Origin: Candidatus Lloydbacteria bacterium RIFCSPHIGHO2_02_FULL_50_18
GTDB lineage: Bacteria; Patescibacteriota; Minisyncoccia; Phycocordibacterales; UBA6899
Reading direction: 5' to 3'
NCBI GenBank assembly: GCA_001821395.1
Contig: MHLM01000012.1
Location: 32,001-96,000, forward strand
Length of the DNA: 64,000 nt
The notes under the pieces were generated by a model. The model did no database searches. It was not told the DNA's origin and saw only the letters and a list, made by a program, of their open reading frames with translations. A program made the translations under genes and the position numbers. This document shows, piece by piece, positions 2,957 through 33,979 of this stretch. Position 1 is the first letter of the stretch. Every line of letters begins with the position of its first letter.

Positions 2957-3037
2957 CGGGGCGTGGTGTAATGGCTAACATGTCTGGTTTTCAGGATAGA
3001 GACCAGATGACAAGAGACAGCGTGACGTAGTGAGGAA
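2957..3037 (+). pseudogene. Partial tRNA-Pro copy: the 5' half duplicated with its upstream flank, an altered 15-nt anticodon loop and no T-arm
   Basis: 2948-2990 is near-identical to 3038-3080, but the downstream sequence does not fold into a T-arm or acceptor stem. Confidence 0.6.
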
Positions 3038-3046
3038 GAAGTATAT

Positions 3047-3119
3047 CGGGGCGTGGTGTAACGGCTAACATGTCTGGTTTGGGACCAGATGACTCCGGGT
3101 TCGAATCCCGGCGCCCCGA
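3047..3119 (+). tRNA. tRNA-Pro (anticodon UGG)
   Basis: Manual cloverleaf: 7-bp acceptor CGGGGCG/CGCCCCG, D-arm, anticodon stem TCTGG/CCAGA with loop TTTGGGA, T-arm CCGGG-TTCGAAT-CCCGG, discriminator A, and no encoded CCA. Confidence 0.85.
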
Positions 3120-3163
3120 CTAAATAAAGAAAAGACCTTCAAGGAGGTCTTTTCTTTATTTAG
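3120..3163. other. Perfect 18-bp-stem hairpin (CTAAATAAAGAAAAGACC / GGTCTTTTCTTTATTTAG)
   Basis: Read directly from the sequence immediately downstream of the tRNA. Confidence 0.7.
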
Positions 3164-3190
3164 TCGAAGGCGCGAGGAGCACAGCTCCGA

Positions 3191-3283
3191 GAGGGATTCG
3201 AAGCCCTTCTCCCATATTTATGAAGGATTCTTATCCTGAGTAAATGGGAAAGGGGTACTGACGCAGTAGGCGTCGAAATTCCC
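3191..3283. repeat. Structured repeat element, copy 2, fused to a duplicated 3' end of tRNA-Pro (TTCCCGGCGCCCCGACTAAATAAA at about 3275-3300)
   Basis: Aligns to 48-139. The tRNA 3'-terminal 24 nt is repeated about 160 bp downstream of the intact tRNA. Confidence 0.6.
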
Positions 3284-3412
3284 GGCGCCCCGACTAAATA
3301 AAAAAACTGCCTTTTGGCGGTTTTTTTATTAAATCTTCAAGATTGAAAATCACCTGCGGCGGTAAGGGTAGATCTCAGTTTTCAATGACTGAGAAGGCGT
3401 CATCGATAAAAA

Positions 3413-3476: not shown

Positions 3477-4058
3477 GTGAAGAATCCCGAATACGAAGAA
3501 GGTGGACATGATGAAAAAAAAGACCTATTCCTTTTTGAGTTGGACGGGGATCTTTACGCTGTACCCGTTGAACTCGTCGATCGAGTAATGAAAATACCTC
3601 CGATCACTCCGATCCCCAATGCGCCGGCGGCAATTGTTGGTATCTTCCACTTGCGCGGAAAGGTCGTTTTGACCCTCGACCTCTCAAGTCGTATGGGTAT
3701 TTCCAGAATGAAGCCCTTAAGTCAAAACTTTCTTTTTGTCGTGCGGTATAAAAATGATCAGTTCGCCATTTTGATCGATACACCTAAGGTCATTGTACAC
3801 ATCCCAGCGAGCGAAATTCATCGTCCCGACTCCATTCTTACGGCCCGATTATCACCGCAATATGTCCAGGGAACCTTCATGTTTCAGGAGGTAACAAAAG
3901 TGAAAGTCCCTAATCATTCGATCTTCATCGAGCATATTGGTGGGGTTGACCGGAGGCCTGAAGAAATTCCACCATCACTTCGACCGGTACTCCTCCTTGA
4001 CCTTGAGCGAGTCCTTGACCAGGAGGATCTTCAGCACATGTTTATTTCACAGGAGTAA
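3477..4058 (+). CDS. cheW: Chemotaxis coupling protein CheW
   Basis: CheW-like domain (FxLRGxVxxVLDL-like motifs); an alternative ATG start at 3509 has a GAAGGTGG ribosome-binding site. Confidence 0.8.
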   Translation: MKNPEYEEGGHDEKKDLFLFELDGDLYAVPVELVDRVMKIPPITPIPNAPAAIVGIFHLRGKVVLTLDLSSRMGISRMKPLSQNFLFVVRYKNDQFAILIDTPKVIVHIPASEIHRPDSILTARLSPQYVQGTFMFQEVTKVKVPNHSIFIEHIGGVDRRPEEIPPSLRPVLLLDLERVLDQEDLQHMFISQE

Positions 4059-4079
4059 AGTCTATGGTACAATTTTAGT

Positions 4080-4442
4080 ATGGCAAAGGATATAAAAATA
4101 CTTCTTGTTGATGACTCAGCTTTTATGCGTAAGGTATTGCGTGACATCTTTGAAAGTGCCGGATATACGAATTTCATAGAGGCGGGAAATGGAACAGAAG
4201 CGATCCAAAAATTCAGAACAGAGAAGCCCGATTTTATCTTTCTTGATATCATCATGCCTGACGTGAACGGTATGGATGTACTTCGTGAGATCGGGAGCGA
4301 AGCGAAGGTCATCGTCGTATCGGCGGTTGGACAAAAGGATGTGATCGAGCAGGCAAAAACACTTGGTGCACTCGATTACATCGTAAAGCCTTTTGATCGT
4401 GATCAGGTGCTCGAAAAGGCCCAGCGGCATTTCGGTCAGTAA
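4080..4442 (+). CDS. cheY: Chemotaxis response regulator CheY
   Basis: Single receiver domain with DD...D...K residues, 120 aa. Confidence 0.85.
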   Translation: MAKDIKILLVDDSAFMRKVLRDIFESAGYTNFIEAGNGTEAIQKFRTEKPDFIFLDIIMPDVNGMDVLREIGSEAKVIVVSAVGQKDVIEQAKTLGALDYIVKPFDRDQVLEKAQRHFGQ

Positions 4443-4456
4443 GTAGCCCGACACGC

Positions 4457-5566
4457 TTGGTCAAATGTTTCATGAATAGTCAACCAACCGAAAAGATCCG
4501 TGTACTTATTGCAGATGATTCTTTTTTTATACGCACCTATCTTCAGGAGGTATTGAAAGCAAGTGAATCGATCGAAGTCGTTGGGCTTGCTTCATCGGGA
4601 ATCGAAGTAGTTGAGTTGGCACGTAAATTAAAACCCCATGTGATCACGATGGATTATCACATGCCGGGAAAAAATGGAATTGAAGCAACCGCAGAGATTA
4701 TGCGTGATGATCACCCGCTTCCGGCAATCATCATGCTTTCTGCTTTCGAGGGGGATGATGGCGAACATGTTCGAAAGACCCTTTTGTCCACCGGTGCCCA
4801 TGTGATCGAAAAACCGTCGGGAGAAGTGTCTCTTGATATAGAAAAGATTGCACGCACTATCGTACAACGGATCGAGGAGGTCGGGTGGACCGAAGTACGC
4901 ATGCGACACTCCTTTGCCCGCATGAAACACACTAGGGAACGAAGCCTAAATGGGCAGGATCGCACACTGCCATTTTCGGGGGTTGTCGTGATCGGTGCGT
5001 CTACCGGTGGGCCATCCTTGGTTGAAGGTTTGATCAAGTCGTTTGATCAGTATCACGGAATTTCGATCGTGATAGTTCAGCACATGTCTGCATATTTTAC
5101 TTCGCTGTTTGCTGAGCGGCTCGGACACGTTACCTCATTCCGTGTTTATGAAGCAAAGAGCGGAGACGTTCTTCTTCCGAACGATGCCCTCGTTGTCCCC
5201 GGTGGTTCTTTTTTGTTACCTACTTCGCTACCGGGTTCCCCGATGTGCAGCTTTGATATTATCGAAAGTGAAACTCATGCACCGGAGGCGCAGATCGACA
5301 ATTCGATGCGCGCGATAGCCGCTTGTTACCAGGGACCAATCGCCGGCGTATTACTTTCCGGAATGGGAAATGACGGAGCCGTCGGACTGCACGCACTGCG
5401 ATTGCGTGGAGGACTTTGTCTTGCGCAGGATCCGGAAACAGCACCGGTGCGTTCTATGCCGGCGCATGCGATTGATAGCGGTGAGGCAGTCGGAGTGCGG
5501 ATAGAGGATATCCCCGAACGTATCATGAGTCATTTTCGTCGACCATCACCGTCACGGCTTGCGTGA
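4457..5566 (+). CDS. cheB: Protein-glutamate methylesterase CheB (receiver plus methylesterase domains)
   Basis: N-terminal receiver domain followed by a CheB methylesterase domain (GASTGGP, HM..F, GG motifs). Confidence 0.85.
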   Translation: MVKCFMNSQPTEKIRVLIADDSFFIRTYLQEVLKASESIEVVGLASSGIEVVELARKLKPHVITMDYHMPGKNGIEATAEIMRDDHPLPAIIMLSAFEGDDGEHVRKTLLSTGAHVIEKPSGEVSLDIEKIARTIVQRIEEVGWTEVRMRHSFARMKHTRERSLNGQDRTLPFSGVVVIGASTGGPSLVEGLIKSFDQYHGISIVIVQHMSAYFTSLFAERLGHVTSFRVYEAKSGDVLLPNDALVVPGGSFLLPTSLPGSPMCSFDIIESETHAPEAQIDNSMRAIAACYQGPIAGVLLSGMGNDGAVGLHALRLRGGLCLAQDPETAPVRSMPAHAIDSGEAVGVRIEDIPERIMSHFRRPSPSRLA

Positions 5567-7250
5567 TATAATCAACCATATGCCGTTGAACATGAATAAG
5601 TATAAGGATCTCTTCTGCGCGGAAGCAGAGGAGCAGCTTGCAATACTCTCTCGTTTATTGCTTGTGCTTGAGAAATCAACAAACCACATGGAATACCATG
5701 AGGAGTTAATGCGCAGCGCACACACCATCAAGGGTGCCGCTGCGACAATGGGGTATGCTTCAATGGCAGAACTTGCTCATGCGGTTGAAGATATTTTTCA
5801 TGCAGCCGAGCGGGGTGCCCTTGTGGTTGATACACGGATCATTACACTATTGCTCTCAGCGATCGACCTCATGACGCATTCACTCGCCTCGATCAAGAGT
5901 AGTGACGTTGAACTTCCCAGTAAGGAAGTTGTTGATAAATTGAAAAAAATTCTTGAAGAAAATGCCGGTGTACAGACCGTTGTTCCGCAAGAAAAAACCG
6001 GTACTGATGTTCAGCAATTGCATATCGTCACTCCGGATACCATCAAGGTTAGTGTCGAAAAACTCGATACATTAATGGGGCTATTTGAGGAAATGTTGAT
6101 GCTCAGACTGAAGGCAAATTCAATGATCGAGCCTGCTGTGGAATTTGTTCGGACGACGACTGACCCTGTATTGAAGCAGCAATTATTCTTCATTGCCGAG
6201 CTCGAGGCATTGTTTGCAGAACTTGCGCGGCTCATGACTGAGCATCAAGACGCTCTTCTTGCTATTCGCCTCGTTCCCCTTGAACAGATCTTCGGCCAGT
6301 TCCCTCGTATGGTGAGGGATCTGTCGGTGCGAGAAGAAAAAGCGATCGAATTTTTTGTTGAAGGTGGAGATATCGCCTTAGACCGTACCGTGATCGAGGG
6401 CCTTGGCGGTGCACTAGCGCATCTTCTTCGCAATGCGGTCGACCACGGGATCGTTTCACGTGGAACAATATCTCTTTCGGCGGTAAGGGAAAAGGGACGC
6501 GTACGGATCTTTGTGGAGGATTCGGGCGCCGGGATCGATTATGGGCGGGTCAAAGAGGTGGCAACGGCTCAAGGGGTAGGCACGAGTGAAGAGATCGCAC
6601 TTATGGGAAACGAACAGCTCGCAGAATTATTGTTTCATCAAAATATGTCGACCAACAAAGTGGTGACGGATATTTCGGGAAGAGGAGTTGGTCTTGCTGC
6701 GGTGCGCGGGTTTGCTGAGGATGTCGGAGGACGCGTTGAAGTCATTTCTCCCATTCCGGAAATAGGGAAGGGGACCCGCTTTGTTCTTGATCTTCCGATC
6801 TCTCTTGCAACAGTGCGCGTGCTCGTCGTGCAAGCACGAGGGTACACATTTGCGATACCTTTCGATCATGTCATTAAAACACTTCACTTTGAAACGCGGG
6901 AGGTCGGTGACGCGGCGCATCAGGAAACACTTTTTCTCGACGGGACATTGTTGCCGCTGATGCATCTCGATAAAATTCTCAAACTATCATACGGTTCCGC
7001 TCCATCTCCGGAACATTCTCGAACCGCGGTGTTGATCCGAACGGGAGAGAAAACATTTCTTCTCGAAGTAGATGCGTGCACGGGTGAACAAGACCTATTG
7101 ATCAAATCGCTTCCTCCGGTTCTCCGTAATAATAAGGGATTTTCAGGCTCAGCGCTTCTCCCGGACGGACGAACAATATTATTACTCGATGGCCATGGTT
7201 TACTCATACAAGCAATAGACGATATACTGAACACCCAATCATTATCTTAA
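5559..7250 (+). CDS. cheA: Chemotaxis histidine kinase CheA
   Basis: Hpt domain (HTIKGAAATMG), HATPase domain (HLLRNAVDHGI, GRGVGL) and a C-terminal CheW-like domain; overlaps the cheB stop by 8 nt. Confidence 0.9.
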   Translation: MRDIINHMPLNMNKYKDLFCAEAEEQLAILSRLLLVLEKSTNHMEYHEELMRSAHTIKGAAATMGYASMAELAHAVEDIFHAAERGALVVDTRIITLLLSAIDLMTHSLASIKSSDVELPSKEVVDKLKKILEENAGVQTVVPQEKTGTDVQQLHIVTPDTIKVSVEKLDTLMGLFEEMLMLRLKANSMIEPAVEFVRTTTDPVLKQQLFFIAELEALFAELARLMTEHQDALLAIRLVPLEQIFGQFPRMVRDLSVREEKAIEFFVEGGDIALDRTVIEGLGGALAHLLRNAVDHGIVSRGTISLSAVREKGRVRIFVEDSGAGIDYGRVKEVATAQGVGTSEEIALMGNEQLAELLFHQNMSTNKVVTDISGRGVGLAAVRGFAEDVGGRVEVISPIPEIGKGTRFVLDLPISLATVRVLVVQARGYTFAIPFDHVIKTLHFETREVGDAAHQETLFLDGTLLPLMHLDKILKLSYGSAPSPEHSRTAVLIRTGEKTFLLEVDACTGEQDLLIKSLPPVLRNNKGFSGSALLPDGRTILLLDGHGLLIQAIDDILNTQSLS

Positions 7251-7255
7251 GTATT

Positions 7256-7921
7256 ATGCCATCACTATTTCAACTCACAGAAAATGATAATGACCAGTTA
7301 CGAGAACTTGTAAATATCGGAGTTTCGCATGCCGGAGACACGTTGTCTTTGATGATGGGGAAACATATCACGGTAAGTATTCCGGGGATATCCGTACAAA
7401 GCGCATCCACTACGCTCTGTTTGCCGCAAGGTGATGAGGATCTCACCGTCTCAGTGTTGCTCCGCGTATACGGGTTAATTAATGGATATGTCTTTTTGTT
7501 TTTTCCGCGCACTGCCGCTCTCCGCTTGCTGCAAGTACTTTCAGGAAAGAGTATCAGCGATGTGCGCGCACTCGATCGATTCGACCGGTCAATATTTCAA
7601 GAACTAGGAAACGTGATCACCGGCGGTACGTTGAACGGACTATCAAAATTTCTCCACATCGAGATGCTTCACTCCGTCCCCAACGTTGTCGTGGATATGA
7701 GTGGTGCAATATTCAATTCCTTATCAGCATCGATGGTGAAGCAGCACGAGGAATTTCTTTCTCTTGATGTTTCGATCTGCATCGATTCTCCATCGAGCTC
7801 TGCTGTGTGTGTTGATAGCGAGGCCTCCGCTGCGCGCATGTATCTTTTTATGGGACCGGATGCCGTGGAGAGGATCCTTGCGATCACCAATGCGATGATC
7901 GGCAAAAAAAATGACCTATGA
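7256..7921 (+). CDS. cheC: CheC-family CheY-P phosphatase
   Basis: Two ExxN-type repeats (ELVNIGVSHAGDTLS; QELGNVITGG) typical of the CheC/FliY/CheX family. Confidence 0.7.
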   Translation: MPSLFQLTENDNDQLRELVNIGVSHAGDTLSLMMGKHITVSIPGISVQSASTTLCLPQGDEDLTVSVLLRVYGLINGYVFLFFPRTAALRLLQVLSGKSISDVRALDRFDRSIFQELGNVITGGTLNGLSKFLHIEMLHSVPNVVVDMSGAIFNSLSASMVKQHEEFLSLDVSICIDSPSSSAVCVDSEASAARMYLFMGPDAVERILAITNAMIGKKNDL

Positions 7922-8406
7922 GCAATACTATCGAAATACGGATTGCTGAGCTTTTTGTTGGTGATCAGTCGAATGTCATCATCACAAAGGGGGTCGGCTC
8001 ATGTATCGTGATCGTCCTCTATGATCGCCTCGTGCGCATCGGAGGGATGGCACATGCGATACTTCCAGAAGCGAGCATCGAGCATGCAGAGGTTGGTGTG
8101 CATGTGGATTTAGGAAAACGATTTGTGAAGTATGCGGATCTTGCAGTGGACACATTGATCGCTGATATGGAGTCATTGGGTGGAACACGGCAGCATCTTG
8201 TCGCAAAATTGATCGGAGGTGCGCATATGTTTGCGTTGCTTGAAGGTGATACGTTTGGTATCGGGTGGGAAAATACAGAAAGTGCACGCGCGCGATTGGT
8301 CCACCATGGAATACCGATTGAAACGGAGGTGGTAGGCGGAACGGTCGGTCGGAATGTACGTCTTGATTGTGCAACAGGCATCGTCGAGATTATCACGAAG
8401 GTTTAA
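7918..8406 (+). CDS. cheD: Chemoreceptor glutamine deamidase CheD
   Basis: GVGSCIVIVLYD and GMAHAILP motifs typical of the CheD family; start codon overlaps the cheC stop. Confidence 0.8.
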   Translation: MSNTIEIRIAELFVGDQSNVIITKGVGSCIVIVLYDRLVRIGGMAHAILPEASIEHAEVGVHVDLGKRFVKYADLAVDTLIADMESLGGTRQHLVAKLIGGAHMFALLEGDTFGIGWENTESARARLVHHGIPIETEVVGGTVGRNVRLDCATGIVEIITKV

Positions 8407-8472: not shown

Positions 8473-8994
8473 ATGCTCATCCGTCGTAACCCACTAACCC
8501 TTTTGTCCTTTGTGCTGTTCGTTATTGCTCTCTACTCTGCGGGCATGCTTTCTTCTTCAGCTCGTGTTACACATGAAACAACGATCCCCGAAAACCTTTT
8601 TTCTGTGAAACAGGGTGTTACTCAGGATGGAACGGTGTCTATTTCCGAGGTTTCACGGGTTCCCGCCGTCCCGATCTTTCTAAAGAGTGCGAATCATCCA
8701 CGAACACTGCGAGCATTTGTCGGACCAAGTCAGGGTGACAAAGCATCACTTTTTATAGAGTCGGTACTACCGCGTGGCTATTTTGTTATTTCAGGAGGTT
8801 ATACTGTTTCACAAGATTTCCCGACACTTTTATGGAATAACGCAGTGACACTTCAGTTTTACGGAACAAAAGAGAACAACGAGCAGCTCTACCGTATTCG
8901 TCTTAACGTGCATGCACTTACGGTTGATGCTTTGCCCGTTGATCCGACAGCAACCAGTAGCGATCCGACGGGGTATCGTGTGACGCCGGATTAA
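8473..8994 (+). CDS. Hypothetical membrane-anchored or secreted protein
   Basis: N-terminal signal/TM segment (LLSFVLFVIALYSAG); ORF-track start 8455 is a TTG, and the first ATG is at 8473. Confidence 0.5.
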   Translation: MLIRRNPLTLLSFVLFVIALYSAGMLSSSARVTHETTIPENLFSVKQGVTQDGTVSISEVSRVPAVPIFLKSANHPRTLRAFVGPSQGDKASLFIESVLPRGYFVISGGYTVSQDFPTLLWNNAVTLQFYGTKENNEQLYRIRLNVHALTVDALPVDPTATSSDPTGYRVTPD

Positions 8995-8998
8995 TACT

Positions 8999-9652
8999 AT
9001 GTCCGATATTCACCTTTGTTCCGATGCAGGATCAAAAAAAGCACGCGCGCTGTGCATGCTACGCAATCTGAAACTCCTGTTTCCTGACGCAAAAATGTTT
9101 TTGCAATTCAGCAACAATTGGGAGCTGCTCGTAGCCGTCGAGCTATCAGCACAATGCACCGATAAGAAGGTGAACGAGATCACCCCGGCGTTGTTTCAGA
9201 AGTATCCGACACTTGAGGACTACATTCGCGCCAAGCCAGTCGAGTTCGAACAAATGATCTTTCAGTCAGGATTTTATCGCAATAAGACGAAAAATATTCT
9301 CGCGGCGGCAAAAATAATTCACGATAAATTTGGGGGAAAAATTCCAAAAACAATGACGGAAATGTTATCGATTCCCGGCGTGGCAAGAAAGACCGCCAAT
9401 GTCGTATTGGGAAATGCGTATGGAATTGTGGAGGGTGTTGCTGTTGATACGCACGTGAAACGATTGGCATCTGTACTCGGTCTTTCTTCAGAAAAAGATC
9501 CGAATAAGATCGAGAAAGACCTCATGGCATTATTTCCAAAAAAAGAGTGGTTTTATCTTACCTATCTTTTGATTGAATTTGGTCGCACCTATTGCCCGGC
9601 GCGTAAACATGACCATGATGCATGCCGGGTACTTCTTGGTCTTAAGCATTGA
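8999..9652 (+). CDS. nth: Endonuclease III-like HhH-GPD DNA glycosylase
   Basis: HhH motif LxxIPGVARKTANVVL followed by a catalytic-region GxxxxD, and a Cys-containing C-terminus. Confidence 0.7.
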   Translation: MSDIHLCSDAGSKKARALCMLRNLKLLFPDAKMFLQFSNNWELLVAVELSAQCTDKKVNEITPALFQKYPTLEDYIRAKPVEFEQMIFQSGFYRNKTKNILAAAKIIHDKFGGKIPKTMTEMLSIPGVARKTANVVLGNAYGIVEGVAVDTHVKRLASVLGLSSEKDPNKIEKDLMALFPKKEWFYLTYLLIEFGRTYCPARKHDHDACRVLLGLKH

Positions 9653-24041: not shown

Positions 24042-25793
24042 ATGCTCGTCCAAGAAAGCAAATTAAAGAAATTTATTCTCGATTCCGGGCTCACATCACG
24101 GTCGGAGATCCTTGCCGCCGAGAAAGATGCCGAGAAGGAAGGTGGGAGTATCGGAGATGTATTAGTGAAGCAGGGCAAAATATCCTCTGATGACCTGCGC
24201 CGTGTCCAGGCATATATTCTCGGCATTCCATTTGTGGATCTGCGCGGGCAGAAGATCGATTTTGCCATCCTTTCATTGATCCCCGAGCCGATTGCACGCA
24301 AGCACAATATCGTCGCATTTCGAAAAACGGATTCCGGTCTTGAGGTCGCAATGCTTGACGTTGATGATCTTGAGGCGATCGACTTTGTGCGTAAAAAGGT
24401 GGGGTTACGTATTCTCCCGCGATTGACGGATCAAGAGTCGGTAAAGGGATCATTGCTGCAGTATCAAAAATCTCTGAAGGCGGAGTTTGGTGACCTCATT
24501 CAGCAAGAAGCACAGTCGATACAAATGCTTGCCGAAGATGAAGATAATCCTGCGTCAGAAAAAGATCTGAAGAAACTCGCGGAAGACCTTCCTGTGGTGC
24601 GTATTGTTGATACGCTCTTGAATCATGCCATCATTCAGTCAGCGTCCGACATTCATATTGAACCGATGGAAAATCAATTGCTGGTGCGCTATCGCATCGA
24701 CGGTATTCTTCACGATGCCATGGTGCTTCCACGAAATTCTGCACCGGGTATTACCGCGCGTATCAAGGTGCTTTCGAATTTAAAATTGGATGAAAAGCGG
24801 TTGCCTCAGGACGGACGGTTCAAGATCCAATTGAACAATGAGAAGGTCTCTTTTCGTGTCTCGACGCTTCCGACACATCATGGAGAGAAGACGGTTATGC
24901 GTCTTTTGCGCGAATCATCAGGAGGTTTCTCGCTTGAATCATTGGGTTTTCACGGGCAGGGACTTGAGGCGCTCCATTCGGCGATGAATCAGCACGTCGG
25001 AATGCTGCTCGTGACCGGGCCGACCGGTTCCGGTAAGACAACGACGCTCTATACATTGCTCGATATCCTGAATACTCCCGATGTGAACATCTCCACCATT
25101 GAGGATCCCGTTGAGTATCAGATGCCGCGTATCAATCAGACACAAGTGAAGCCGGAGATCGGCCTCACCTTTGCCATGGGGTTACGCGCACTCCTTCGCC
25201 AGGACCCCGATATCATCATGGTGGGAGAGATCCGCGACGGTGAGACAGCCTCACTTGGAATCAATGCCGCGCTTACGGGACATTTAGTGCTGTCGACCCT
25301 GCATACGAATTCCGCCGCCGGAACATTACCGCGTTTCATTGATATGGGCGCAGAGCCGTTCCTCATCATCTCAACGGTGAACGTCATCATCGGACAACGG
25401 CTCGTACGTAAGTTGTGCGCCACGAAAGAGAAATATAATCTCTCAAAGGCGGAGCTTGATGCATTAGGGAAAAAGGCAAACCTCGATATCGTCCTCGCTT
25501 CACTCAAGGAGGAGGGGATAGTAGCAAAAGATATAGCGTGGGCGGATGTCCCGTTTTATAAAGCGAAACCTTCCCCTGAATGTGATGAGGGCTATAAGGG
25601 GCGTCTGAGTATTCATGAAGTGCTACACATGTCGTCGGGGATCCGTGAACTTGCCGTCGCAAGTGCATCTGCAGAAAAGATCGAGATACAGGCGCGCAAA
25701 GAAGGGATGCTGACGATGCTTGAAGACGGGATATTCAAGGCAGCCCAAGGACTCACGTCCATCGAAGAAGTCTATAGAGTAGTCAGCGAGTGA
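24042..25793 (+). CDS. pilB: Type IV pilus assembly ATPase PilB (GspE family)
   Basis: GSPII_E N-terminal domain, Walker A GPTGSGKTTT, and Asp and His boxes. Confidence 0.9.
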   Translation: MLVQESKLKKFILDSGLTSRSEILAAEKDAEKEGGSIGDVLVKQGKISSDDLRRVQAYILGIPFVDLRGQKIDFAILSLIPEPIARKHNIVAFRKTDSGLEVAMLDVDDLEAIDFVRKKVGLRILPRLTDQESVKGSLLQYQKSLKAEFGDLIQQEAQSIQMLAEDEDNPASEKDLKKLAEDLPVVRIVDTLLNHAIIQSASDIHIEPMENQLLVRYRIDGILHDAMVLPRNSAPGITARIKVLSNLKLDEKRLPQDGRFKIQLNNEKVSFRVSTLPTHHGEKTVMRLLRESSGGFSLESLGFHGQGLEALHSAMNQHVGMLLVTGPTGSGKTTTLYTLLDILNTPDVNISTIEDPVEYQMPRINQTQVKPEIGLTFAMGLRALLRQDPDIIMVGEIRDGETASLGINAALTGHLVLSTLHTNSAAGTLPRFIDMGAEPFLIISTVNVIIGQRLVRKLCATKEKYNLSKAELDALGKKANLDIVLASLKEEGIVAKDIAWADVPFYKAKPSPECDEGYKGRLSIHEVLHMSSGIRELAVASASAEKIEIQARKEGMLTMLEDGIFKAAQGLTSIEEVYRVVSE

Positions 25794-26069
25794 CGGGCAT
25801 TCTCGCGGATTATTTCGTTGAAAGCTTGCGAGGCTCATTCACCGTACTCAGAAGTACGCCTCATATCGCTTCGCGCTTTCGCCTCGTACTCCATCGAGAA
25901 TACCAATCACTCTATTCGGCTAAATCTGGCGTCTATATTTGTTAGCGGCCCACTGCCCGTCCTTCCTAGCTTTCGTTTCGCATCAAGATCATTCACTCAC
26001 TCGGGAACAGCGAATGAATGATTTTGCGTTTTATTTGTGAAAAGAGTAGAACTACAAAGGAACAATTGA

Positions 26070-26375
26070 ATGAAATTTCACATGAAACTTATTCGTGACA
26101 AGATACCCGGCATCGCTCATGCAAAGGGTGAACAGCTGCAGTGCCATAAGGCGGATCCCGCAGAATATCGCTATCATCTTCGAGAAAAGATTCTTGAAGA
26201 GGTTCATGAATTTCGTGAGTCTGGAGAGGCAGAGGAATTAGCTGATATTCTGGAGGTTGTACGGGCGATAGCAAATGAGCGCGGTTTATCGATGCGCAAT
26301 CTTTATCTCCTTCGTGATAAAAAGCGCCGAGCACGGGGAGGATTTGACGGACGGATCATTTGGCAAAATGAGTAG
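26070..26375 (+). CDS. MazG-like nucleotide pyrophosphohydrolase (PRA-PH-like small protein)
   Basis: KLIRDKIP N-terminus and EELADILEV motif typical of small all-alpha NTP pyrophosphohydrolases. Confidence 0.55.
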   Translation: MKFHMKLIRDKIPGIAHAKGEQLQCHKADPAEYRYHLREKILEEVHEFRESGEAEELADILEVVRAIANERGLSMRNLYLLRDKKRRARGGFDGRIIWQNE

Positions 26376-26527
26376 ATCGAGCAAGTCGGCTTGTAGGATC
26401 GGACATCGTGTCCGGTCTTTTGTTATTGCCCATGAGAATGCCATGAGTTTCGGTCACGACCATGCGCGAGTAAGGAGTGTGGAAAAGCGTGTCACGCAGA
26501 CTATTTTCCTATATAATAAAATGAACT

Positions 26528-27745
26528 ATGCCCAAGTACACCTATAAAGCACAATTGCTCGCAACTGGTAGTGAGATGGAAGGAACCGCAGAAGCAGCGG
26601 ATAAATTTGAACTTGCAAAGAATATAAAGATGGAAGGAAAACTTCTTCTTAGCGCAACCGAGCTCTCCGATTCACCCTGGAACATGGACAAGATCAACGC
26701 CTTGCTGACGAAGGTTGACCTGCGTGAAAAGATCTTGTTTGCGCGCAATATGGCGACGATGATCCAGGCAGGACTTCCTCTTTCACGAGCATTGCAGATC
26801 TTTGTGAAACAAACGAAGAATCCGAAGTTTCGTACGGTATTGAGCTCCATCATCGAAGACATTAATAAAGGCACTTCTTTTTCCGATGCCATGGGAAAAT
26901 TCGAAGATATTTTTCCGGCCGTCTTCATTTCAATGGTACGTGCAGGTGAGGAATCCGGCGGACTCGTTGAGGCGCTCAATGTTGTTGGCGGACAGATGGA
27001 AAAGACCTATACGATAAAGAAAAAAGTAAAAGGCGCAATGATGTATCCTGGGATCGTCCTCATCGTCATGCTTGCGGTGGGGGTGCTGATGATGATCTAC
27101 GTTGTTCCCGGACTTGCGGCAGGGTTCAAGGAGGCCGGCGCTGAATTGCCCCCCCTGACAAAGGCCATCGTGGCTATAAGTGATTTTCTGCAGAATGACC
27201 TCCTCCTCGCATTGCTCGGTGTCGCCGGTGTCACTGCAGCATTCTGGTGGTACAAGCGCACGACGCTCGGTTCTCGTTCCATTGACTGGCTAGTAATCCG
27301 CCTCCCTGTTTTTGGTAAATTGATCAAGGAGTTCAACTCCGCACTTGCTACTCGTACGCTGTCATCACTCATATCTGCGGGGGTGGATATCGTCCATGCG
27401 ATCGAGATCACCCAAGACGTGCTCGGTAATATCTTTTATAAAGAAACGCTAGAACAGGCGAAGATTAATGTGCAGAAAGGAGTCCCTCTTTCCCAGGTGT
27501 TCATCGAAAATAATGAGATCTACCCGGTCATGGTGGGAGACATGATGGAGGTTGGGGAAGAGACCGGACAGCTCTCGGGAATGCTGCTCAAGATCGCGAC
27601 GTTCTATGAAGAAGAGGTTAGTCAGGCGACCGAGGACATGTCAAAGCTCATCGAACCGCTGCTCATGGCCATCATCGCCGTCTTTGTCGGCATTTTCGCG
27701 GTCGCAATGATCACCCCCATGTACTCGATGATGCAAAATATCTAA
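26528..27745 (+). CDS. pilC: Type IV pilus platform protein PilC (GspF family)
   Basis: Two T2SS-F repeats and three TM segments, 405 aa. Confidence 0.85.
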   Translation: MPKYTYKAQLLATGSEMEGTAEAADKFELAKNIKMEGKLLLSATELSDSPWNMDKINALLTKVDLREKILFARNMATMIQAGLPLSRALQIFVKQTKNPKFRTVLSSIIEDINKGTSFSDAMGKFEDIFPAVFISMVRAGEESGGLVEALNVVGGQMEKTYTIKKKVKGAMMYPGIVLIVMLAVGVLMMIYVVPGLAAGFKEAGAELPPLTKAIVAISDFLQNDLLLALLGVAGVTAAFWWYKRTTLGSRSIDWLVIRLPVFGKLIKEFNSALATRTLSSLISAGVDIVHAIEITQDVLGNIFYKETLEQAKINVQKGVPLSQVFIENNEIYPVMVGDMMEVGEETGQLSGMLLKIATFYEEEVSQATEDMSKLIEPLLMAIIAVFVGIFAVAMITPMYSMMQNI

Positions 27746-27885
27746 GCATTTATTTGTATTATCGTTTCATGAGGTGTGACGACGGAGGATGCATGCGGAG
27801 GGGGCGGACATGCTGCGGTGCTTCGGTCTCGCGGTGATCGTTGGATTTTCGGCAAACGAAAATATTTTAGGCGACATTTCGAATT

Positions 27886-28359
27886 ATGCTCAATTCACAA
27901 CACACAACTCGCGGAGTGACACTCGTTGAAATATTGCTGGTGATCGCAATCACGATACTGCTTGCGTCTGTCGTGCTTTCTTCGTTTGGACAATATCGGT
28001 TGCGGCAGAGTCTCGCAGGTTCGATCGAAAGCGTGCTCGCGGCAATAAGCGCGGCACATCTGAATACCATTTCTTCAAAAAATGACAGTCCTTATGGGGT
28101 CAATCTCAAGCCTGACGAGGCGATCTATTTTGCCGGTGATTCTTATCCGGGAGATACCGATCCCGCTAATATTCATTACGTGCTACCGGCGACGATCGAG
28201 ATCGCAAATGTCAGTCTTAATGGTGGTGATACAAAAATATATTTTAAGAAGCTTATGGGGGCTACCGACAATTATGGAACATTTGATATTCGCGCAAAAA
28301 CAAGCACCGGCGTAGGTACGACAGTGACGATCTATCAGACCGGGGCGACATCCATCTGA
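27886..28359 (+). CDS. Type IV pilin, likely the major pilin (157 aa)
   Basis: Class III signal followed by a hydrophobic helix (RG|VTLVEILLVIAITILLA); it is the first and shortest pilin of the locus. Confidence 0.7.
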   Translation: MLNSQHTTRGVTLVEILLVIAITILLASVVLSSFGQYRLRQSLAGSIESVLAAISAAHLNTISSKNDSPYGVNLKPDEAIYFAGDSYPGDTDPANIHYVLPATIEIANVSLNGGDTKIYFKKLMGATDNYGTFDIRAKTSTGVGTTVTIYQTGATSI

Positions 28360-28373
28360 TTGTTCATATAAAT

Positions 28374-28943
28374 ATGATGAAACTCAAACACACAAAGACA
28401 GCAGTAAGAGCAGCACTGAATGGAGGCAGCTTCTTCCTCACTTGCCGTCCGTCGCGATGCCGTCGAGGTCCGACATCGGGATTTTCCATCGTTGAGATCA
28501 TTCTTGGTATCGGAATGCTGACAACGGCACTCGTTGCTGTTTCAGCGTACTATATAAGGCTGCTCACCGTCAGTGAGTTGACTACCGAGCACATTCAGTC
28601 AGGGTTCTTGCTTGAGGAGGGGGTTGAGGTTATGAAGCTGTTGCGTGACGAGAGTTGGTCGACAACAATCGCCCCACTTTCCACTACGACGACGTACTAT
28701 TTGTCCTGGAATGGAACGAAGTGGACAGCGACAACAACAAAGCAGGTCATAGAGAATATTTTCACACGCTCATTGGAGATCAGTGACGTGAATCGTGACA
28801 ATGTAACCTACAATATTGATCCTACGGGTACATATGATCCTGGAACTAAGAAGGTCACCGTGAGTATTGGATGGCAGAGAAGAGGCGGGAACGTCGCTAC
28901 CGACACGGCGCAAACTTACATCATGAACCTTTTTAATAATTAG
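28374..28943 (+). CDS. Pilin-like protein (minor pilin)
   Basis: G|FSIVEIILGIGML motif; the leader before the cleavage site is unusually long at about 36 aa. Confidence 0.55.
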   Translation: MMKLKHTKTAVRAALNGGSFFLTCRPSRCRRGPTSGFSIVEIILGIGMLTTALVAVSAYYIRLLTVSELTTEHIQSGFLLEEGVEVMKLLRDESWSTTIAPLSTTTTYYLSWNGTKWTATTTKQVIENIFTRSLEISDVNRDNVTYNIDPTGTYDPGTKKVTVSIGWQRRGGNVATDTAQTYIMNLFNN

Positions 28944-28944
28944 T

Positions 28945-29478
28945 ATGATCTTTTTACGAAACAATTCGGACAGGACACAGAGCAGGGGCTTCACTCTTGT
29001 TGAAATGGTCCTTTATATTGGACTGTTCGTATTGCTTTCAACGATGTCGATGACTGCGCTCTTTCAGACGGTTAGGGCTTTCAACGAACTACGGGTATCC
29101 CGCGATATCGATGATTCTGCAGTAAAGATCATGGAGCGACTGACGCGCGATATTAAGAGCTCGACATCTGTCGATCTTGCAAACAGCACCTTTGGGTCAT
29201 CTCCGGGAAGGTTGACGCTATTAACGGTCAATGCCTCAGGAACACCCCTCACCGTCGAATACTATGTCTCAGGTTCCATATTGAGCATAAGAGAGAACGG
29301 CGTCGACAGAGGAGCGCTTATGTCTGCTCGTACGAACATCGATGCATTGGTATTTTATTACATCAGCTCGGGCCCAACATTTGGAATAAAAACAGAATTG
29401 CACATTTCATCGACGCGCGGAAAGGCCGGCGAGGTGGATGATTTCTACGATACCAGTGTCCTACGGGGATCGTATTAA
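28945..29478 (+). CDS. Pilin-like protein (minor pilin)
   Basis: RG|FTLVEMVLYIGLFVLL prepilin N-terminus. Confidence 0.65.
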   Translation: MIFLRNNSDRTQSRGFTLVEMVLYIGLFVLLSTMSMTALFQTVRAFNELRVSRDIDDSAVKIMERLTRDIKSSTSVDLANSTFGSSPGRLTLLTVNASGTPLTVEYYVSGSILSIRENGVDRGALMSARTNIDALVFYYISSGPTFGIKTELHISSTRGKAGEVDDFYDTSVLRGSY

Positions 29479-29483
29479 CGCTT

Positions 29484-31340
29484 ATGAAGATATTTTTTAT
29501 GCAAATTCGCTCACGATCCGCACATATGTTTTCTCATGCAAGTCAGACGAGGGGTGCCGCGCTCATTATCTTGGTCTTCTTTTTTATCTCGATATCTCTC
29601 GCGATCATTCAAACCGCTACCATCGGTGCTCTTGTCGAACTTCGGACCTATCGCACGATTGCGAGCTCTAAGGCCGCGTACGCCGCCGCCGAGGCGGGCG
29701 TTGAAGATATTTTTTACCGCACGATAAATAGTAAGCCCGTCCCAGTAAGCGAGTCACTCACATTGGACGGGGCAACGGCCAGCGTGGGAGTGGCGCCTAT
29801 TTCGGCGTCCCAGAGTGATGTGTATGTCGTCGGCACGGCTGGTAACGGCGAAGTACGCAAGCTGTATCTGTCGATATCGAAGAACAGAACGGCTTCGTTT
29901 TCCTACGGCGCACAGGTCGGAGAGGGCGGGATTATCATGGATAACAACGTGGATATCGATGGTATGGGTCTTGCAAATGGTGATATTTACTCGAACGGTC
30001 AGGTTGTCGGCGGTACGAATGTCCACGTGATGGGTAACGTTATTTCATCATCCAGTTTGTTCGCTGACCAGATCGCAAGTTCCACGTTGTGTGAGAGTGA
30101 TGAGGCTGTCGGCAAAACAAATCCGCGCATTGATTATGCGCAAAGCTTTATGCTCTCTACTACGACGGCGAGCATTGACCTTGCCAGTGTCTCGCTCTAC
30201 ATCAAGCGGAATAATGGTCCGACCGGCGCGAATATTCGCATTACCGCAGATGATAGCGGTAAGCCGTCAACGGTCGCTCTCGCTACTCAACCGCTTCCAT
30301 ATTCAAGTGTCGCCACTACTTACGGATGGGTGACGGTCAGCTTTGCGACACCCGCCACGCTTGACCCCGGGACATTGTACTGGATCGTTCTTGACGCGAC
30401 GCAGAATGCGTCAAAGTATTGGTATTGGTGCAGGAGTAACGCCGACAATTATGCAACCGGTACCCCGGCCTACAAGCTCGACAGTTCTACGTCCGGTGCG
30501 TGGACGGCGGTATCGGGTGATATGGCGTTTGGAACGACATTTGGCGGCGGTATCAGTAAGATCGATGATGTTGACGTCCTTGGTATCGCTAAGGCCGATA
30601 CGATAACAGATTCGCATATTCACAGTGATGCTTACTACAAGACCATCTCCGATTCGACCGTCGACGGGGCGTCCTATGCCGGAACACCGACTCCTCCATA
30701 TGTCCCACTTCCGATCTCGAGTTCGACGATCACACAGTGGGAGGGCGATGCCGCTAGTGGTGGTATCATAAGCGGTGATTGTGGCGTTGGCGGCATCGCG
30801 GCATGCAACACGTTTCCCCTCTCTCTCGGGCCGAAGCGGATCAACGGCAACCTCGTCGTTGATAATGGAGCAGTGCTGACCGTCACTGGGACGATCTATG
30901 TTACCGGGAATGTCGTCATTGATAATGGCGGATCGATCCGTTGCGCATTCGGCTTCATGGGTAATAGCTGTATCATCATCGCAGATGGCCATATCAGTGT
31001 ATCCAACAATGCGACCTTCGGCGGATCCGGAGTGTCCGGAAGTTTTATCATGTTACTGTCAACAAAGGAGGGCTGTCTGGGGACAAGCGGCACCGGCTGC
31101 GCTACAAATTTTAGCGCAATAGGAATAAAGAATAATGTTACCGGTGCGCTCTTCTATACCAGTAGATCGCTTATCGATATTTCGAATCAGGCTACCGTGA
31201 CTGCGGTTGTCGGGTATATGCTTATGCTGCAAAACGGATCCGGAATCATGTATGATCCGCTGGTTGCGAACATCTCATTTGCGCCGGCCACGAGTGGAGT
31301 AACCGGCGCCTGGAATGCAGTTCGCTGGAATGAATATTGA
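29484..31340 (+). CDS. Large pilus-associated protein with a PilX-like N-terminus (618 aa), Gly/Thr/Ser-rich and predicted beta-rich
   Basis: N-terminal hydrophobic helix AALIILVFFFISISLAIIQTAT followed by long low-complexity G/T/S/N-rich repeats. Confidence 0.5.
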   Translation: MKIFFMQIRSRSAHMFSHASQTRGAALIILVFFFISISLAIIQTATIGALVELRTYRTIASSKAAYAAAEAGVEDIFYRTINSKPVPVSESLTLDGATASVGVAPISASQSDVYVVGTAGNGEVRKLYLSISKNRTASFSYGAQVGEGGIIMDNNVDIDGMGLANGDIYSNGQVVGGTNVHVMGNVISSSSLFADQIASSTLCESDEAVGKTNPRIDYAQSFMLSTTTASIDLASVSLYIKRNNGPTGANIRITADDSGKPSTVALATQPLPYSSVATTYGWVTVSFATPATLDPGTLYWIVLDATQNASKYWYWCRSNADNYATGTPAYKLDSSTSGAWTAVSGDMAFGTTFGGGISKIDDVDVLGIAKADTITDSHIHSDAYYKTISDSTVDGASYAGTPTPPYVPLPISSSTITQWEGDAASGGIISGDCGVGGIAACNTFPLSLGPKRINGNLVVDNGAVLTVTGTIYVTGNVVIDNGGSIRCAFGFMGNSCIIIADGHISVSNNATFGGSGVSGSFIMLLSTKEGCLGTSGTGCATNFSAIGIKNNVTGALFYTSRSLIDISNQATVTAVVGYMLMLQNGSGIMYDPLVANISFAPATSGVTGAWNAVRWNEY

Positions 31341-31442
31341 TGGAGCTCGTAAGTGTTTTAGCGCGGAGTATCCCGGAGGCGTCTTTATTTGGTGTTTACG
31401 TTCATCGCCCGTTATACTGCAGATGAACATTCATATTGCATC

Positions 31443-33254: not shown

Positions 33255-33316
33255 GAACCTCGCTTTTGGGGTATAATGATGCCATATATGATGTCCGCTT
33301 TCCGGTCGCATATTCC

Positions 33317-33979
33317 ATGCTCATGAAATTTACAATACTCAGAACATCTATTACGTCTTATGGGTTTACGCTCATTGAGGCAATCGTTGCAATAGGGATC
33401 ATGACCTTGATCGGTGGAGGTATTGTCGCCTTTCAAAAAAGTGTCATAGTAAATTCAAAAGTGCTTCAAGGTACACTAGTCTCTCAGCAACAGGTCCGGA
33501 AAACCTTCTCAACCTTTTCTGCCGAGCTTCGTTCAGCGAGTCCCTCGGTAAATGGCTCTTACGCGATCGAATCAGTGAGCACTTCGTCGATCGTTTTCTA
33601 TTCAAATATTGATAATGATGCAACGGTCGAACGTGTGCGTTATTTTTACGCTACATCAACAATAGGGAGCACTGTGCTCAATGTGTTGAAAAAGGGTGTC
33701 ACAAGACCGATCGGCGCTGTCTACACCACTGCGCCTGAGACGATCACCACAATTGTTTATGACGTAAAAAATTCTTCCACTACTCCAATTTTTACCTATT
33801 TTGATTCTGCGTATAGCGGGGTCGCCTCCTCGACTGCTCCACTCGCACAACCTGTTCCGATCGCTGAGGTTCGTCTCGTTAAAATGTCACTCGCTATCGA
33901 CCCGAATGCGTCACGGTCGCCCATTTATCAGACCTATGAGACGCAGGTATCCATCCGCAACCTTAAGGACAATCTATGA
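33317..33979 (+). CDS. Pilin-like protein (minor pilin)
   Basis: YGFTLIEAIVAIGIMTLIGGG prepilin N-terminus. Confidence 0.6.
   Translation: MLMKFTILRTSITSYGFTLIEAIVAIGIMTLIGGGIVAFQKSVIVNSKVLQGTLVSQQQVRKTFSTFSAELRSASPSVNGSYAIESVSTSSIVFYSNIDNDATVERVRYFYATSTIGSTVLNVLKKGVTRPIGAVYTTAPETITTIVYDVKNSSTTPIFTYFDSAYSGVASSTAPLAQPVPIAEVRLVKMSLAIDPNASRSPIYQTYETQVSIRNLKDNL

What the first reader, a model, noticed from the sequence alone, without database searches (positions are those of the whole stretch)
3477..8406. Chemotaxis operon cheW-cheY-cheB-cheA-cheC-cheD without MCP or CheR, 16 kb from a type IV pilus/competence locus
Six che genes form one compact operon with overlapping stops. CheB and CheD both modify methyl-accepting chemotaxis proteins, and CheC and CheD are present together as in the Bacillus-type adaptation system. 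Yet no receptor or methyltransferase is encoded in the window, and no flagellar gene is present. The only motility or surface machinery in 64 kb is type IV pili. This suggests a chemosensory pathway controlling pilus-based behaviour (twitching, attachment or DNA uptake), which would be noteworthy in a small-genome organism.
Basis: partly seen in the sequence, partly recalled or inferred. Interest (0 to 1): 0.5.

Follow-up and report, generated by a model that had tools for sequence, protein, structure and literature searches.

The report
Pilus-linked chemotaxis operon in CPR bacterium
An intact six-gene chemotaxis-type signalling operon sits in a tiny-genome groundwater bacterium (Candidatus Lloydbacteria), a group usually said to lack chemotaxis; in related bacteria the same operon is fused to type IV pilus genes, so it most likely steers pilus-based behaviour rather than flagella.

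Summary
Window 3477-8406 (+) encodes CheW, CheY, CheB, CheA, CheC and CheD as one compact unit. The window holds no MCP, CheR or flagellar gene.

The organism is Candidatus Lloydbacteria bacterium RIFCSPHIGHO2_01_FULL_49_22 (CPR/Patescibacteria). The "missing" receptor exists elsewhere in the same MAG: A2845_05355, 414 aa, a two-helix membrane hairpin with no sensor domain.

The CheA belongs to a Patescibacteria-only clade of about 100 sequence clusters. In 6 of 11 related lineages the operon is contiguous, on the same strand, with cheY2-pilB-pilC-pilins-pilM. Only 2 of 80 non-CPR CheA neighbourhoods show a PilB homologue. This supports a pilus-directed pathway.

The pilus locus 15.6 kb downstream in this window is a paralogue, not the cognate one. 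Its PilB is 41-43% identical to the che-linked PilBs, which are 73-78% identical to each other.

Gene content and best-matching models are F1-like (CheC and CheD; haloarchaeal and Thermotogales models), but CheA has no P2 domain. No CheR lies near any clade member. The clade's receptors carry Gln-Gln, not Glu-Glu, at consensus modification sites. Genome-wide absence of CheR and flagella could not be tested.

Verdict: a new variant of a known kind.

The parts
3477..4058 (+). cheW, coupling protein, 193 aa, with an insertion of about 30 aa relative to the Pfam model
   Evidence: Pfam PF01584, 2.2e-23. Orthologues hold the same position in L007, L090, L100 and L101.
4080..4442 (+). cheY (CheY1), single-domain response regulator, 120 aa, the presumed output
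   Evidence: Pfam REC, 4.5e-28. The best NCBIfam model is CheY_Halo. It is 71-74% identical across relatives whose CheA is only 50-53% identical. The DD, D, S and K-P-F positions are conserved in 9 of 9 sequences.
4472..5566 (+). cheB, REC plus receptor methylesterase/deamidase. The ORF opens at 4457; gene callers start it at 4472 (364 aa).
   Evidence: Pfam CheB_methylest, 2.1e-43, plus REC. The GASTGG Ser, QHM His and GMGxDG Asp motifs are conserved in 9 of 9 relatives.
5580..7250 (+). cheA, histidine kinase with P1-P3-P4-P5 and no P2 domain. The ORF opens at 5559; the called protein is 556 aa.
   Evidence: Pfam Hpt, HATPase_c and CheW domains. Residues 160-548 align with P3-P4-P5 of T. maritima and E. 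coli CheA structures. It is 100% identical to OGZ06235.1. The phospho-His motif SAHTIKG is present.
7256..7921 (+). cheC, CheY-P phosphatase with both active-site motifs
   Evidence: Pfam CheC/CheX. NCBIfam CheC_Thtogales, 7.5e-29. D-x3-E-x2-N-x22-P and S-x3-E-x2-N-x22-P can be read in the sequence. The D/S-x3-E-x2-N cores are conserved in the eight relatives with a complete N-terminus; the L100 gene call lacks the first motif.
7918..8406 (+). cheD, receptor glutamine deamidase / CheC partner
   Evidence: Pfam PF03975, 5.7e-23. NCBIfam CheD models, 3e-30. The GSC Cys and AH His are conserved in 9 of 9 relatives.
8473..9652 (+). Co-oriented downstream genes: a 173-aa membrane-anchored protein of unknown function (8473-8994) and endonuclease III, nth (8999-9652). 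They are probably co-transcribed but not shown to belong to the pathway.
   Evidence: The same pair lies between cheD and cheY2-pilB in L090 and L101, and is absent in L008. There is no Pfam or NCBIfam hit for the 173-aa protein. Its AlphaFold model was unusable, pLDDT 40.6.
24042..35448 (+). Type IV pilus locus: pilB 24042-25793, pilC 26528-27745, prepilins 27886-29478, 31389-33254 and 33221-33979. It is paralogous to the che-linked pilus cluster of relatives and is a possible but unproven target.
   Evidence: Pfam T2SSE and T2SSF. Prepilin motifs are present. Identity matrix: PilB 39-43% and PilC 25-31% to the che-linked loci, against 73-78% and 67-75% among the che-linked loci of the same subclade.

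Best explanation
This is a functional chemosensory (Che) operon of a Patescibacteria-specific, F1-like family whose ancestral job is to control a type IV pilus machine, not a flagellum.

Proposed mechanism:
1. A membrane-anchored receptor encoded elsewhere in the genome (A2845_05355: two transmembrane helices, no sensor domain, roughly 44-heptad signalling hairpin) assembles with CheW and CheA.
2. CheA autophosphorylates on its P1 histidine and passes the phosphate to CheY and CheB.
3. CheY-P acts on the pilus motor or platform (PilB/PilC/PilM). This biases pilus extension and so twitching, attachment to a host cell or DNA uptake.
4. CheC removes the phosphate from CheY-P.
5. CheD and CheB-P deamidate the receptor's Gln-Gln sites to set or adapt its signalling state.

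In this particular genome the operon has been uncoupled from its cognate cheY2-pilB-pilC cluster. About 14 kb of opposite-strand housekeeping genes follow nth, and the pilus locus 15.6 kb downstream is a paralogue. Which pilus machine it now addresses is therefore unresolved.

Shown: gene presence, intact catalytic motifs, the receptor in the same MAG, synteny in relatives, and paralogy of the nearby pilus locus.
Inferred: array formation, phosphotransfer, the CheY target, and the role of deamidation.
For: - Domains and motifs are intact and conserved in 9 of 9 relatives.
- The operon recurs on at least 18 contigs from independent assemblies.
- The CheA clade has about 100 clusters at 90% identity (P0001-P0103). 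It is monophyletic in an NJ tree, with two subclades, and separate from the cyanobacterial clade.
- che is contiguous with cheY2/pilB/pilC/pilM in L008, L009, L090, L091, L092 and L101. Only 2 of 80 non-CPR neighbourhoods have a PilB homologue.
- A2845_05355 was retrieved at E = 4.7e-82 with a profile of MCPs taken from those che-pil clusters. It carries the same MAG locus-tag prefix as CheA A2845_00305.
- Literature: the phylum has type IV pili that drive twitching in Saccharibacteria (PMC12206443), and flagellar genes are largely absent (PMC13293708).
Against: - The cognate pilus cluster and cheY2 are not next to the operon here. No cheY2 orthologue attributable to this MAG appeared among 19 database hits.
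- Five of 11 lineages lack pilB within 10 kb: the window type, L100, L007, L102 and the P0102 locus.
- Only one receptor was found, and it has no sensor domain.
- CheB is present but no CheR was found.
- The rest of the genome, about 1 Mb in many contigs, could not be scanned for flagellar genes, CheR, PilT or a second pilus locus.
- No expression or biochemical data exist.
Confidence: 0.62

Rival explanations
1. One reading: the che operon directly controls the pilus locus at 24-35 kb in this window, and their proximity reflects a functional unit.
For: The two lie on the same strand 15.6 kb apart. It is the only pilus machine seen in the DNA available for this organism. After loss of the cognate cluster, rewiring to a remaining pilus system is plausible.
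Against: PilB and PilC of this locus are far too diverged to be orthologues of the che-linked ones: 41-43% and 25-28%, against 73-78% and 67-75% among relatives at equal CheA distance. No response regulator gene precedes pilB here. The intervening 14 kb is unrelated opposite-strand housekeeping: PGM, RNase Y, ClpP, trigger factor, H+-PPase and NusA.
Confidence: 0.25
2. The pathway controls something other than pili, an 'alternative cellular function' such as gene expression, cell envelope or development, with CheY acting on a non-pilus target.
For: In 5 of 11 lineages no pilB lies within 10 kb. The receptor has no recognisable sensor domain. Many Che systems in other phyla have non-motility outputs (PMC10782961).
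Against: No output-domain protein (DNA-binding, GGDEF and the like) occurs in any of the clusters, only single-domain CheYs and CheC-like proteins. Synteny with pilB spans both deep subclades.
Confidence: 0.1
3. It is an ordinary flagellar chemotaxis operon, with flagellar, mcp and cheR genes elsewhere in the genome.
For: Gene content (CheA/W/Y/B/C/D) is that of flagellar F1 systems of Firmicutes and Thermotogae. The rest of the genome was not scanned.
Against: Flagellar genes are reported as largely absent from the whole phylum. The orthologous operon is fused to pilus genes in six lineages. No scanned ORF in the window matched a flagellar family, and gene tables for about 190 kb of related loci list none.
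Confidence: 0.03
4. It is a decaying relic left after loss of the cognate pilus cluster and cheY2, and is no longer functional.
For: cheY2 and the cognate pilB/pilC are missing from this position. CPR genomes are under reductive evolution.
Against: All six genes are full length with every catalytic motif intact. The same uncoupled arrangement persists in lineages with 73% (L100) and 51% (L007) CheA identity, which indicates long-term purifying selection after uncoupling. The matching MCP is retained.
Confidence: 0.05

Closest known systems
F1-class chemotaxis systems (Bacillus subtilis / Thermotoga maritima CheA-W-Y-B-C-D; haloarchaeal Che)
   Same: - Gene set with both CheC and CheD plus CheB.
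- Best-matching curated models are CheA_Halo (323 bits against 232 for the E. coli type), CheY_Halo, CheC_Thtogales and Thermotoga/Bacillus-type CheD.
- The receptor arm length fits the long, roughly 44-heptad type.
- CheC has two active sites.
   Different: - All scores are below the models' equivalog cut-offs.
- CheA lacks the P2 domain: no PF07194 hit, and P3 starts at residue 160.
- No CheR is in any of the neighbourhoods examined, against 41 CheR hits in 80 non-CPR neighbourhoods.
- No flagellar or archaellar genes are nearby; pilus genes are instead.
- Receptors carry Gln-Gln rather than Glu-Glu at consensus sites.
Tfp-class chemosensory systems (Pseudomonas aeruginosa Pil-Chp; cyanobacterial Tax/Pix)
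   Same: The presumed output is a type IV pilus. che genes are clustered with pil genes in relatives. There is more than one CheY-like regulator (CheY1 plus pilB-adjacent CheY2), reminiscent of PilG/PilH (established knowledge; PMC10782961).
   Different: - CheA here has a single Hpt and no C-terminal receiver, unlike ChpA-type kinases.
- The CPR CheAs do not group with the cyanobacterial CheAs in the NJ tree.
- CheC and CheD are present.
- No CheR (PilK) was found.
Archaeal Che-archaellum coupling (CheY-CheF-ArlCDE)
   Same: An F1-like Che system is paired with a type IV filament machine whose ATPase is a PilB homologue. One archaeal neighbourhood in my sample (L058, Methanolinea) also shows CheA next to a PilB-family gene.
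   Different: No CheF (DUF439) or ArlCDE-like gene was annotated in any CPR cluster. The filament genes here are bacterial-type pilB/pilC/pilM/prepilins.

Membership tests
Chemosensory (Che) pathway | CheA with Hpt (P1), dimerisation (P3), kinase (P4) and CheW-like (P5) domains | tested here: met
   Pfam finds Hpt, HATPase_c and CheW. P3 is not seen by Pfam, but residues 160-548 align with P3-P5 of the 1b3q and 6s1k CheA structures.
Chemosensory (Che) pathway | CheW, CheY and at least one MCP in the same genome | tested here: met
   CheW and CheY are in the operon. The MCP A2845_05355 (PF00015, 5.9e-36) carries the same MAG locus-tag prefix and lies on contig MHLI01000022.1. The caveat is that a MAG bin is not a closed genome.
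Chemosensory (Che) pathway | Methylation-based adaptation pair CheR plus CheB | tested here: inconclusive
   CheB is present with an intact triad. A CheR HMM finds nothing in the window plus 19 related loci, and Pfam gene tables for four further contexts list no CheR. The rest of the genome could not be searched.
F1 class (Wuichet and Zhulin classification) | CheA groups with F1 CheAs under the class-specific models or phylogeny (MiST) | not testable with these tools
   MiST class HMMs are not available. Proxy evidence: the best NCBIfam model is haloarchaeal CheA. In the NJ tree the CPR clade is separate and not nested in any sampled group; there was no bootstrap.
F1 class (Wuichet and Zhulin classification) | Accessory genes CheC and CheD present | tested here: met
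Tfp class (Pil-Chp / cyanobacterial Tax) | CheA of ChpA/PixL type: multiple Hpt domains and/or a C-terminal receiver domain, grouping with Tfp CheAs | tested here: not met
   There is a single Hpt and no receiver domain. The clade is separate from the Nostocales/Microcoleus/Leptolyngbyaceae CheAs.
Tfp class (Pil-Chp / cyanobacterial Tax) | che genes clustered with pil genes | tested here: inconclusive
   Met in 6 of 11 related lineages. Not met for this window, where the nearby pilus locus is a paralogue 15.6 kb away.
Type IV pilus system (the nearby locus) | PilB-type ATPase, PilC platform protein and prepilins with a class III signal motif | tested here: met
Type IV pilus system (the nearby locus) | Retraction ATPase PilT, prepilin peptidase PilD and PilM/N/O alignment proteins | tested here: not met
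   Pfam finds none in the window. PilM of the relatives has no BLAST match in the window. These genes may lie elsewhere in the genome.

The most novel reading that the evidence does not exclude
A lineage of CPR bacteria runs a CheR-less chemosensory system in which receptors are synthesised fully amidated (Gln-Gln at every modification site). They are then modified only in one direction, by the deamidases CheD and CheB. This would be a deamidation-only or timer-like form of adaptation, coupled to a dedicated type IV pilus for finding or attaching to host cells. It would also be a second, bacterial instance of an F1-type Che system driving a type IV filament, parallel to the archaeal archaellum.
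Probability: 0.18. Interest if true: 0.8.

Novelty: new variant of a known kind. Interest (0 to 1): 0.58.

Why it matters
CPR/Patescibacteria are described in surveys and reviews as lacking chemotaxis (PMC7137472, PMC11974145; the 2026 review PMC13293708 does not mention it). Their type IV pili are now known to drive twitching and host attachment in cultured Saccharibacteria (PMC12206443).

A conserved Che system wired to a dedicated pilus cluster would mean that some of these ultrasmall, probably host-dependent bacteria can sense signals and direct pilus activity. That bears on the open question of how episymbionts find hosts.

For chemotaxis research it offers three things:
- a minimal, P2-less, F1-like system with a non-flagellar output;
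- receptors with Gln-only modification sites;
- possibly no methyltransferase.

Each of these is directly testable with recombinant proteins.

Tried and rejected
1. The single genome-contig scan with a 14-sequence CheA alignment was wasted. Those 80 loci were reused as a comparison set.

2. The metagenome-contig scan with CheA returned only 5 short loci.

3. Genome-wide tests for CheR, flagellar genes, PilT and a second pilus locus in this MAG were not possible. The protein-search tools list only the nearest relatives of a query, and contig look-ups are by exact protein.

4. A search for the pilB-adjacent cheY2 gave 19 hits.

5. I asked whether the conserved upstream 378-aa protein (1699-2835) or the downstream 173-aa protein (8473-8994) could be a divergent receptor, sensor or adaptor.
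   - Neither has a Pfam hit, and the 173-aa protein has no NCBIfam hit either.
   - Alignments show fast-evolving membrane or low-complexity proteins.
   - The single-sequence AlphaFold model of the 173-aa protein was unusable (pLDDT 40.6).
   - The pair 173-aa plus nth is absent in L008, so it looks like an insertion. It was rejected as a pathway component for lack of evidence.

6. The MotA_ExbB-family ORF was considered as a flagellar stator and rejected, because its best matches are TolQ/ExbB.

7. Horizontal-transfer or contamination artefact was rejected. GC is uniform across the window. The operon sits among CPR-type housekeeping genes on contigs up to 182-250 kb in independent assemblies.

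8. Literature searches for any prior description of Che systems in CPR, Parcubacteria or Lloydbacteria found none.


Full report
**1. What is there**

ORF listing and Pfam scans confirm six co-oriented genes at 3477-8406 (+), in the order cheW, cheY, cheB, cheA, cheC, cheD.
- Gene callers on identical contigs start CheB at 4472 (364 aa) and CheA at 5580 (556 aa).
- Spacing is tight: 21, 14-29, about 13 and 5 bp, with a 4-bp cheC/cheD overlap.
- No + strand terminator-like site lies before 9652. The next two genes, a 173-aa membrane protein and endonuclease III, may therefore be co-transcribed.
- tRNA-Pro (3047-3120) and hairpins bound the unit upstream.

Every functional motif I could read is intact:
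- CheA has the phospho-His motif SAHTIKG, an N box, a DxGxG G1 box and a GRGVGL G2 box.
- CheY and the CheB receiver domain keep the DD / D / S / K positions.
- CheB keeps GASTGG, QHM and GMGxDG.
- CheD keeps the GSC cysteine and AH histidine.
- CheC has two complete [D/S]-x3-E-x2-N-x22-P sites.

CheA residues 160-548 align with P3-P4-P5 of solved T. maritima and E. coli CheA structures. The dimerisation domain is therefore present although Pfam misses it. There is no P2 domain.

**2. The rest of the window**

Pfam scans of the larger ORFs and local HMM searches of all ORFs of at least 50 aa find no MCP and no CheR. No scanned ORF matched a flagellar family. The single MotA_ExbB-family ORF (44764-45438) matches TolQ/ExbB best.

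A type IV pilus locus lies at 24042-35448. It holds PilB, PilC and five prepilins with class III signal motifs. ComEC is at 42522-44093. GC content is even across the window.

**3. Organism**

CheA is identical to OGZ06235.1 / A2845_00305 of Candidatus Lloydbacteria bacterium RIFCSPHIGHO2_01_FULL_49_22, a Rifle groundwater MAG in the Parcubacteria group of the CPR. The operon recurs on at least 18 contigs from independent assemblies. It is therefore not an assembly artefact.

**4. The receptor is not missing**

I took MCPs found next to orthologous che clusters in related Patescibacteria (L009, L091, L092), built a profile of their signalling domains and searched the protein collection.
- One of the best hits (E = 4.7e-82) is A2845_05355 of the same MAG, 414 aa, with PF00015 at 5.9e-36.
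- It sits alone between guanylate kinase and NAD kinase on contig MHLI01000022.1.
- It has two transmembrane helices joined by a few residues, no periplasmic sensor domain and no HAMP.
- Its signalling hairpin has arms of about 150 residues, which is roughly 44 heptads. This is my estimate from tip position 223.

**5. Relatives: the link to pili**

CheA has about 100 close clusters in the collection (P0001-P0103, 35-100% identity). Beyond them come ordinary CheAs with P2 domains. In an NJ tree with 80 non-CPR CheAs, the CPR sequences form one clade with two subclades. That clade is separate from the cyanobacterial (Tfp-type) CheAs (no bootstrap, deep placement unresolved).

I obtained gene neighbourhoods for 10 further lineages.

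Contiguous with pilus genes on the same strand (6 lineages):

| Locus | Gene order |
|---|---|
| L008 | che - cheY2 - pilB - pilC ... pilM |
| L090 | che - 171aa - nth - cheY2 - pilB - [retroelement] - pilC - pilin |
| L101 | che - 192aa - nth - cheY2 - pilB - pilC - pilin |
| L009 | pilins - MCP - ... che ... - pilB |
| L091 | MCPs - che - cheY2 - pilB - pilC ... pilM |
| L092 | MCP - che - three cheY - pilB - pilC ... pilM |

Not contiguous within 10 kb (4 lineages):
- L100 and L007, which share the window's arrangement.
- L102, which is 'Patescibacteria group bacterium AH-259-L07'.
- The P0102 locus.

By contrast, a PilB homologue lies within 10 kb of CheA in only 2 of 80 non-CPR neighbourhoods. 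One of those is an archaeon, where the gene is probably the archaellum ATPase. Conserved same-strand adjacency across subclades that share only 35-38% CheA identity is strong evidence for a functional link between this Che family and a type IV pilus machine.

**6. The pilus locus in this window is not the cognate one**

Among L090, L101 and L008 the che-linked PilBs are 73-78% identical and the PilCs 67-75%. Their CheAs are only 50-55% identical to each other, the same distance as to the window's CheA.
- The window's PilB is 41-43% identical to them and its PilC 25-28%.
- That is no closer than to the other subclade, and slightly more distant than the two che-linked groups are from each other, 44-47%.
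- Nth, CheY1 and CheD are 72%, 71-74% and 64-70% identical between the window and these relatives.

The window's locus is therefore a paralogous pilus system.

The receiver gene that precedes pilB in the relatives (cheY2) has no orthologue or remnant in the window. None of 19 database homologues can be attributed to this MAG. That is weak evidence, since MAGs are incomplete.

In the window, L100 and L007, nth is followed instead by opposite-strand housekeeping genes. The operon has nevertheless stayed intact in this uncoupled sub-lineage down to 51% CheA identity, which argues for continued function.

**7. What kind of Che system**

Gene content (CheC, CheD and CheB) and the best curated models point to the F1 type known from Firmicutes, Thermotogae and Archaea. 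Those models are CheA_Halo at 323 bits against 232 for the E. coli type, CheY_Halo, CheC_Thtogales and Thermotoga/Bacillus-type CheD. All scores are below the equivalog cut-offs. It is not the Tfp class: there is a single Hpt, no receiver domain, and the tree position differs.

Three features are unusual for F1:
- **No P2 domain.**
- **No CheR nearby.** A CheR HMM built from 24 CheRs of the comparison loci (bait checked by Pfam) hits 41 ORFs in the 80 non-CPR neighbourhoods. It hits none in the window plus 19 patescibacterial loci.
- **Gln-rich receptor sites.** The consensus motif is [ASTG]2-x2-[EQ]2-x2-[ASTG]2. The five receptors from CPR contexts have 16 QQ, 3 QE, 1 EQ and 0 EE at these sites, although E and Q are about equally frequent in these domains. 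The 39 MCPs of the comparison loci have 71 EE, 18 EQ, 14 QE and 6 QQ.

The top 20 profile hits show the same bias (92 QQ, 1 EE), but they were selected by a Q-rich profile, so I give them little weight.

Subclade 2 clusters also carry extra proteins of about 195 aa with a CheC-type S-x3-E-x2-N motif that Pfam does not recognise.

**8. Mechanism**

See the best explanation. The pathway logic (MCP-CheW-CheA to CheY/CheB, CheC as phosphatase, CheD/CheB as receptor deamidases) follows from established knowledge of these families and the intact motifs. The pilus output rests on synteny. The identity of the CheY target and the meaning of the Gln-only sites are inference. Whether CheR is truly absent is open.

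**9. Literature**

Full-text searches found no paper describing Che systems in CPR, Parcubacteria or Lloydbacteria.
- Surveys state that the group lacks chemotaxis and flagella (PMC7137472; PMC11974145; PMC11809585).
- The large CheA architecture survey does not mention Patescibacteria (PMC10782961).
- The 2026 phylum review stresses type IV pili and the absence of flagella, and does not mention chemotaxis (PMC13293708).
- Pilus-driven twitching is demonstrated in Saccharibacteria (PMC12206443).

**10. Verdict**

- Right: a pilus-linked, non-flagellar Che system in a small-genome bacterium.
- Wrong: that there is no receptor, and that the neighbouring pilus locus is significant.
- Open: whether CheR is absent.

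This is a new variant of a known kind. It is moderately interesting for CPR biology and for chemotaxis research, and it comes with clear, cheap computational tests that I could not run here.

Noticed in passing
window 2948-3330: tRNA-Pro(TGG) at 3047-3120 is flanked by partial copies of itself. A 5' half lies at 2948-3011 (43 nt at 98% identity, then 21 nt at 81%, with 11 nt replacing the 3-nt anticodon GGG). The 3' end plus a second hairpin terminator lies at 3280-3330 (76% over 51 nt). This looks like a scar of recombination or integration at the tRNA gene, just upstream of cheW.
   Followed up: partly
window 44764-46650: A TolQ/ExbB-like proton-channel gene (MotA_ExbB family, 6.5e-13) is followed by two ORFs of 226 and 206 aa with no family match. 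It lies next to ComEC, in a lineage thought to lack an outer membrane. What it energises is unknown.
   Followed up: partly
L090 17732-19138 (relative, GCA_043736515.1): A bAvd gene plus a reverse transcriptase gene, the parts of a diversity-generating retroelement, lie between pilB and pilC of the che-linked pilus cluster. This suggests targeted hypervariation of a pilus-associated protein.
   Followed up: no
L009 5359-5955 and 6988-7572; L092 7955-8542; L102 959-1537: Unannotated proteins of about 195 aa in subclade 2 che clusters carry a CheC-type motif (DRSA[IVL]KETLNILSNSY) and hit the window's CheC at 28% identity, but have no Pfam hit. L009 7569-8561 appears to fuse a receiver domain to a similar module. 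They are probably extra CheY-P phosphatases or adaptors.
   Followed up: partly
P0135 (A2845_05355), L093 10001-11245; MCPs in L009, L091, L092: Patescibacterial MCPs have Gln-Gln at nearly all consensus methylation/deamidation sites (16 QQ, 0 EE in 20 sites). MCPs from other phyla have mostly Glu-Glu (71 EE, 6 QQ).
   Followed up: partly
window 9663-24000: About 14 kb of opposite-strand housekeeping genes (PGM, tRNA-Gly, RNase Y, ClpP, C26 peptidase, trigger factor, H+-pyrophosphatase, NusA, a zinc-ribbon protein) occupies the position where relatives L090 and L101 have cheY2-pilB directly after nth. This marks a rearrangement that uncoupled che from its pilus cluster.
   Followed up: partly
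window 1404-2835: A 94-aa and a 378-aa protein lie upstream of cheW, after a UPF0102 gene. The 378-aa protein is acidic and low-complexity, with one hydrophobic segment and a C-terminal coiled-coil-like region. A protein pair holds the same position in the four Lloydbacteria-like relatives whose upstream region is available (L007, L090, L100, L101), and only the 94-aa protein shows detectable sequence similarity. Their function is unknown and there is no evidence of a link to che.
   Followed up: partly
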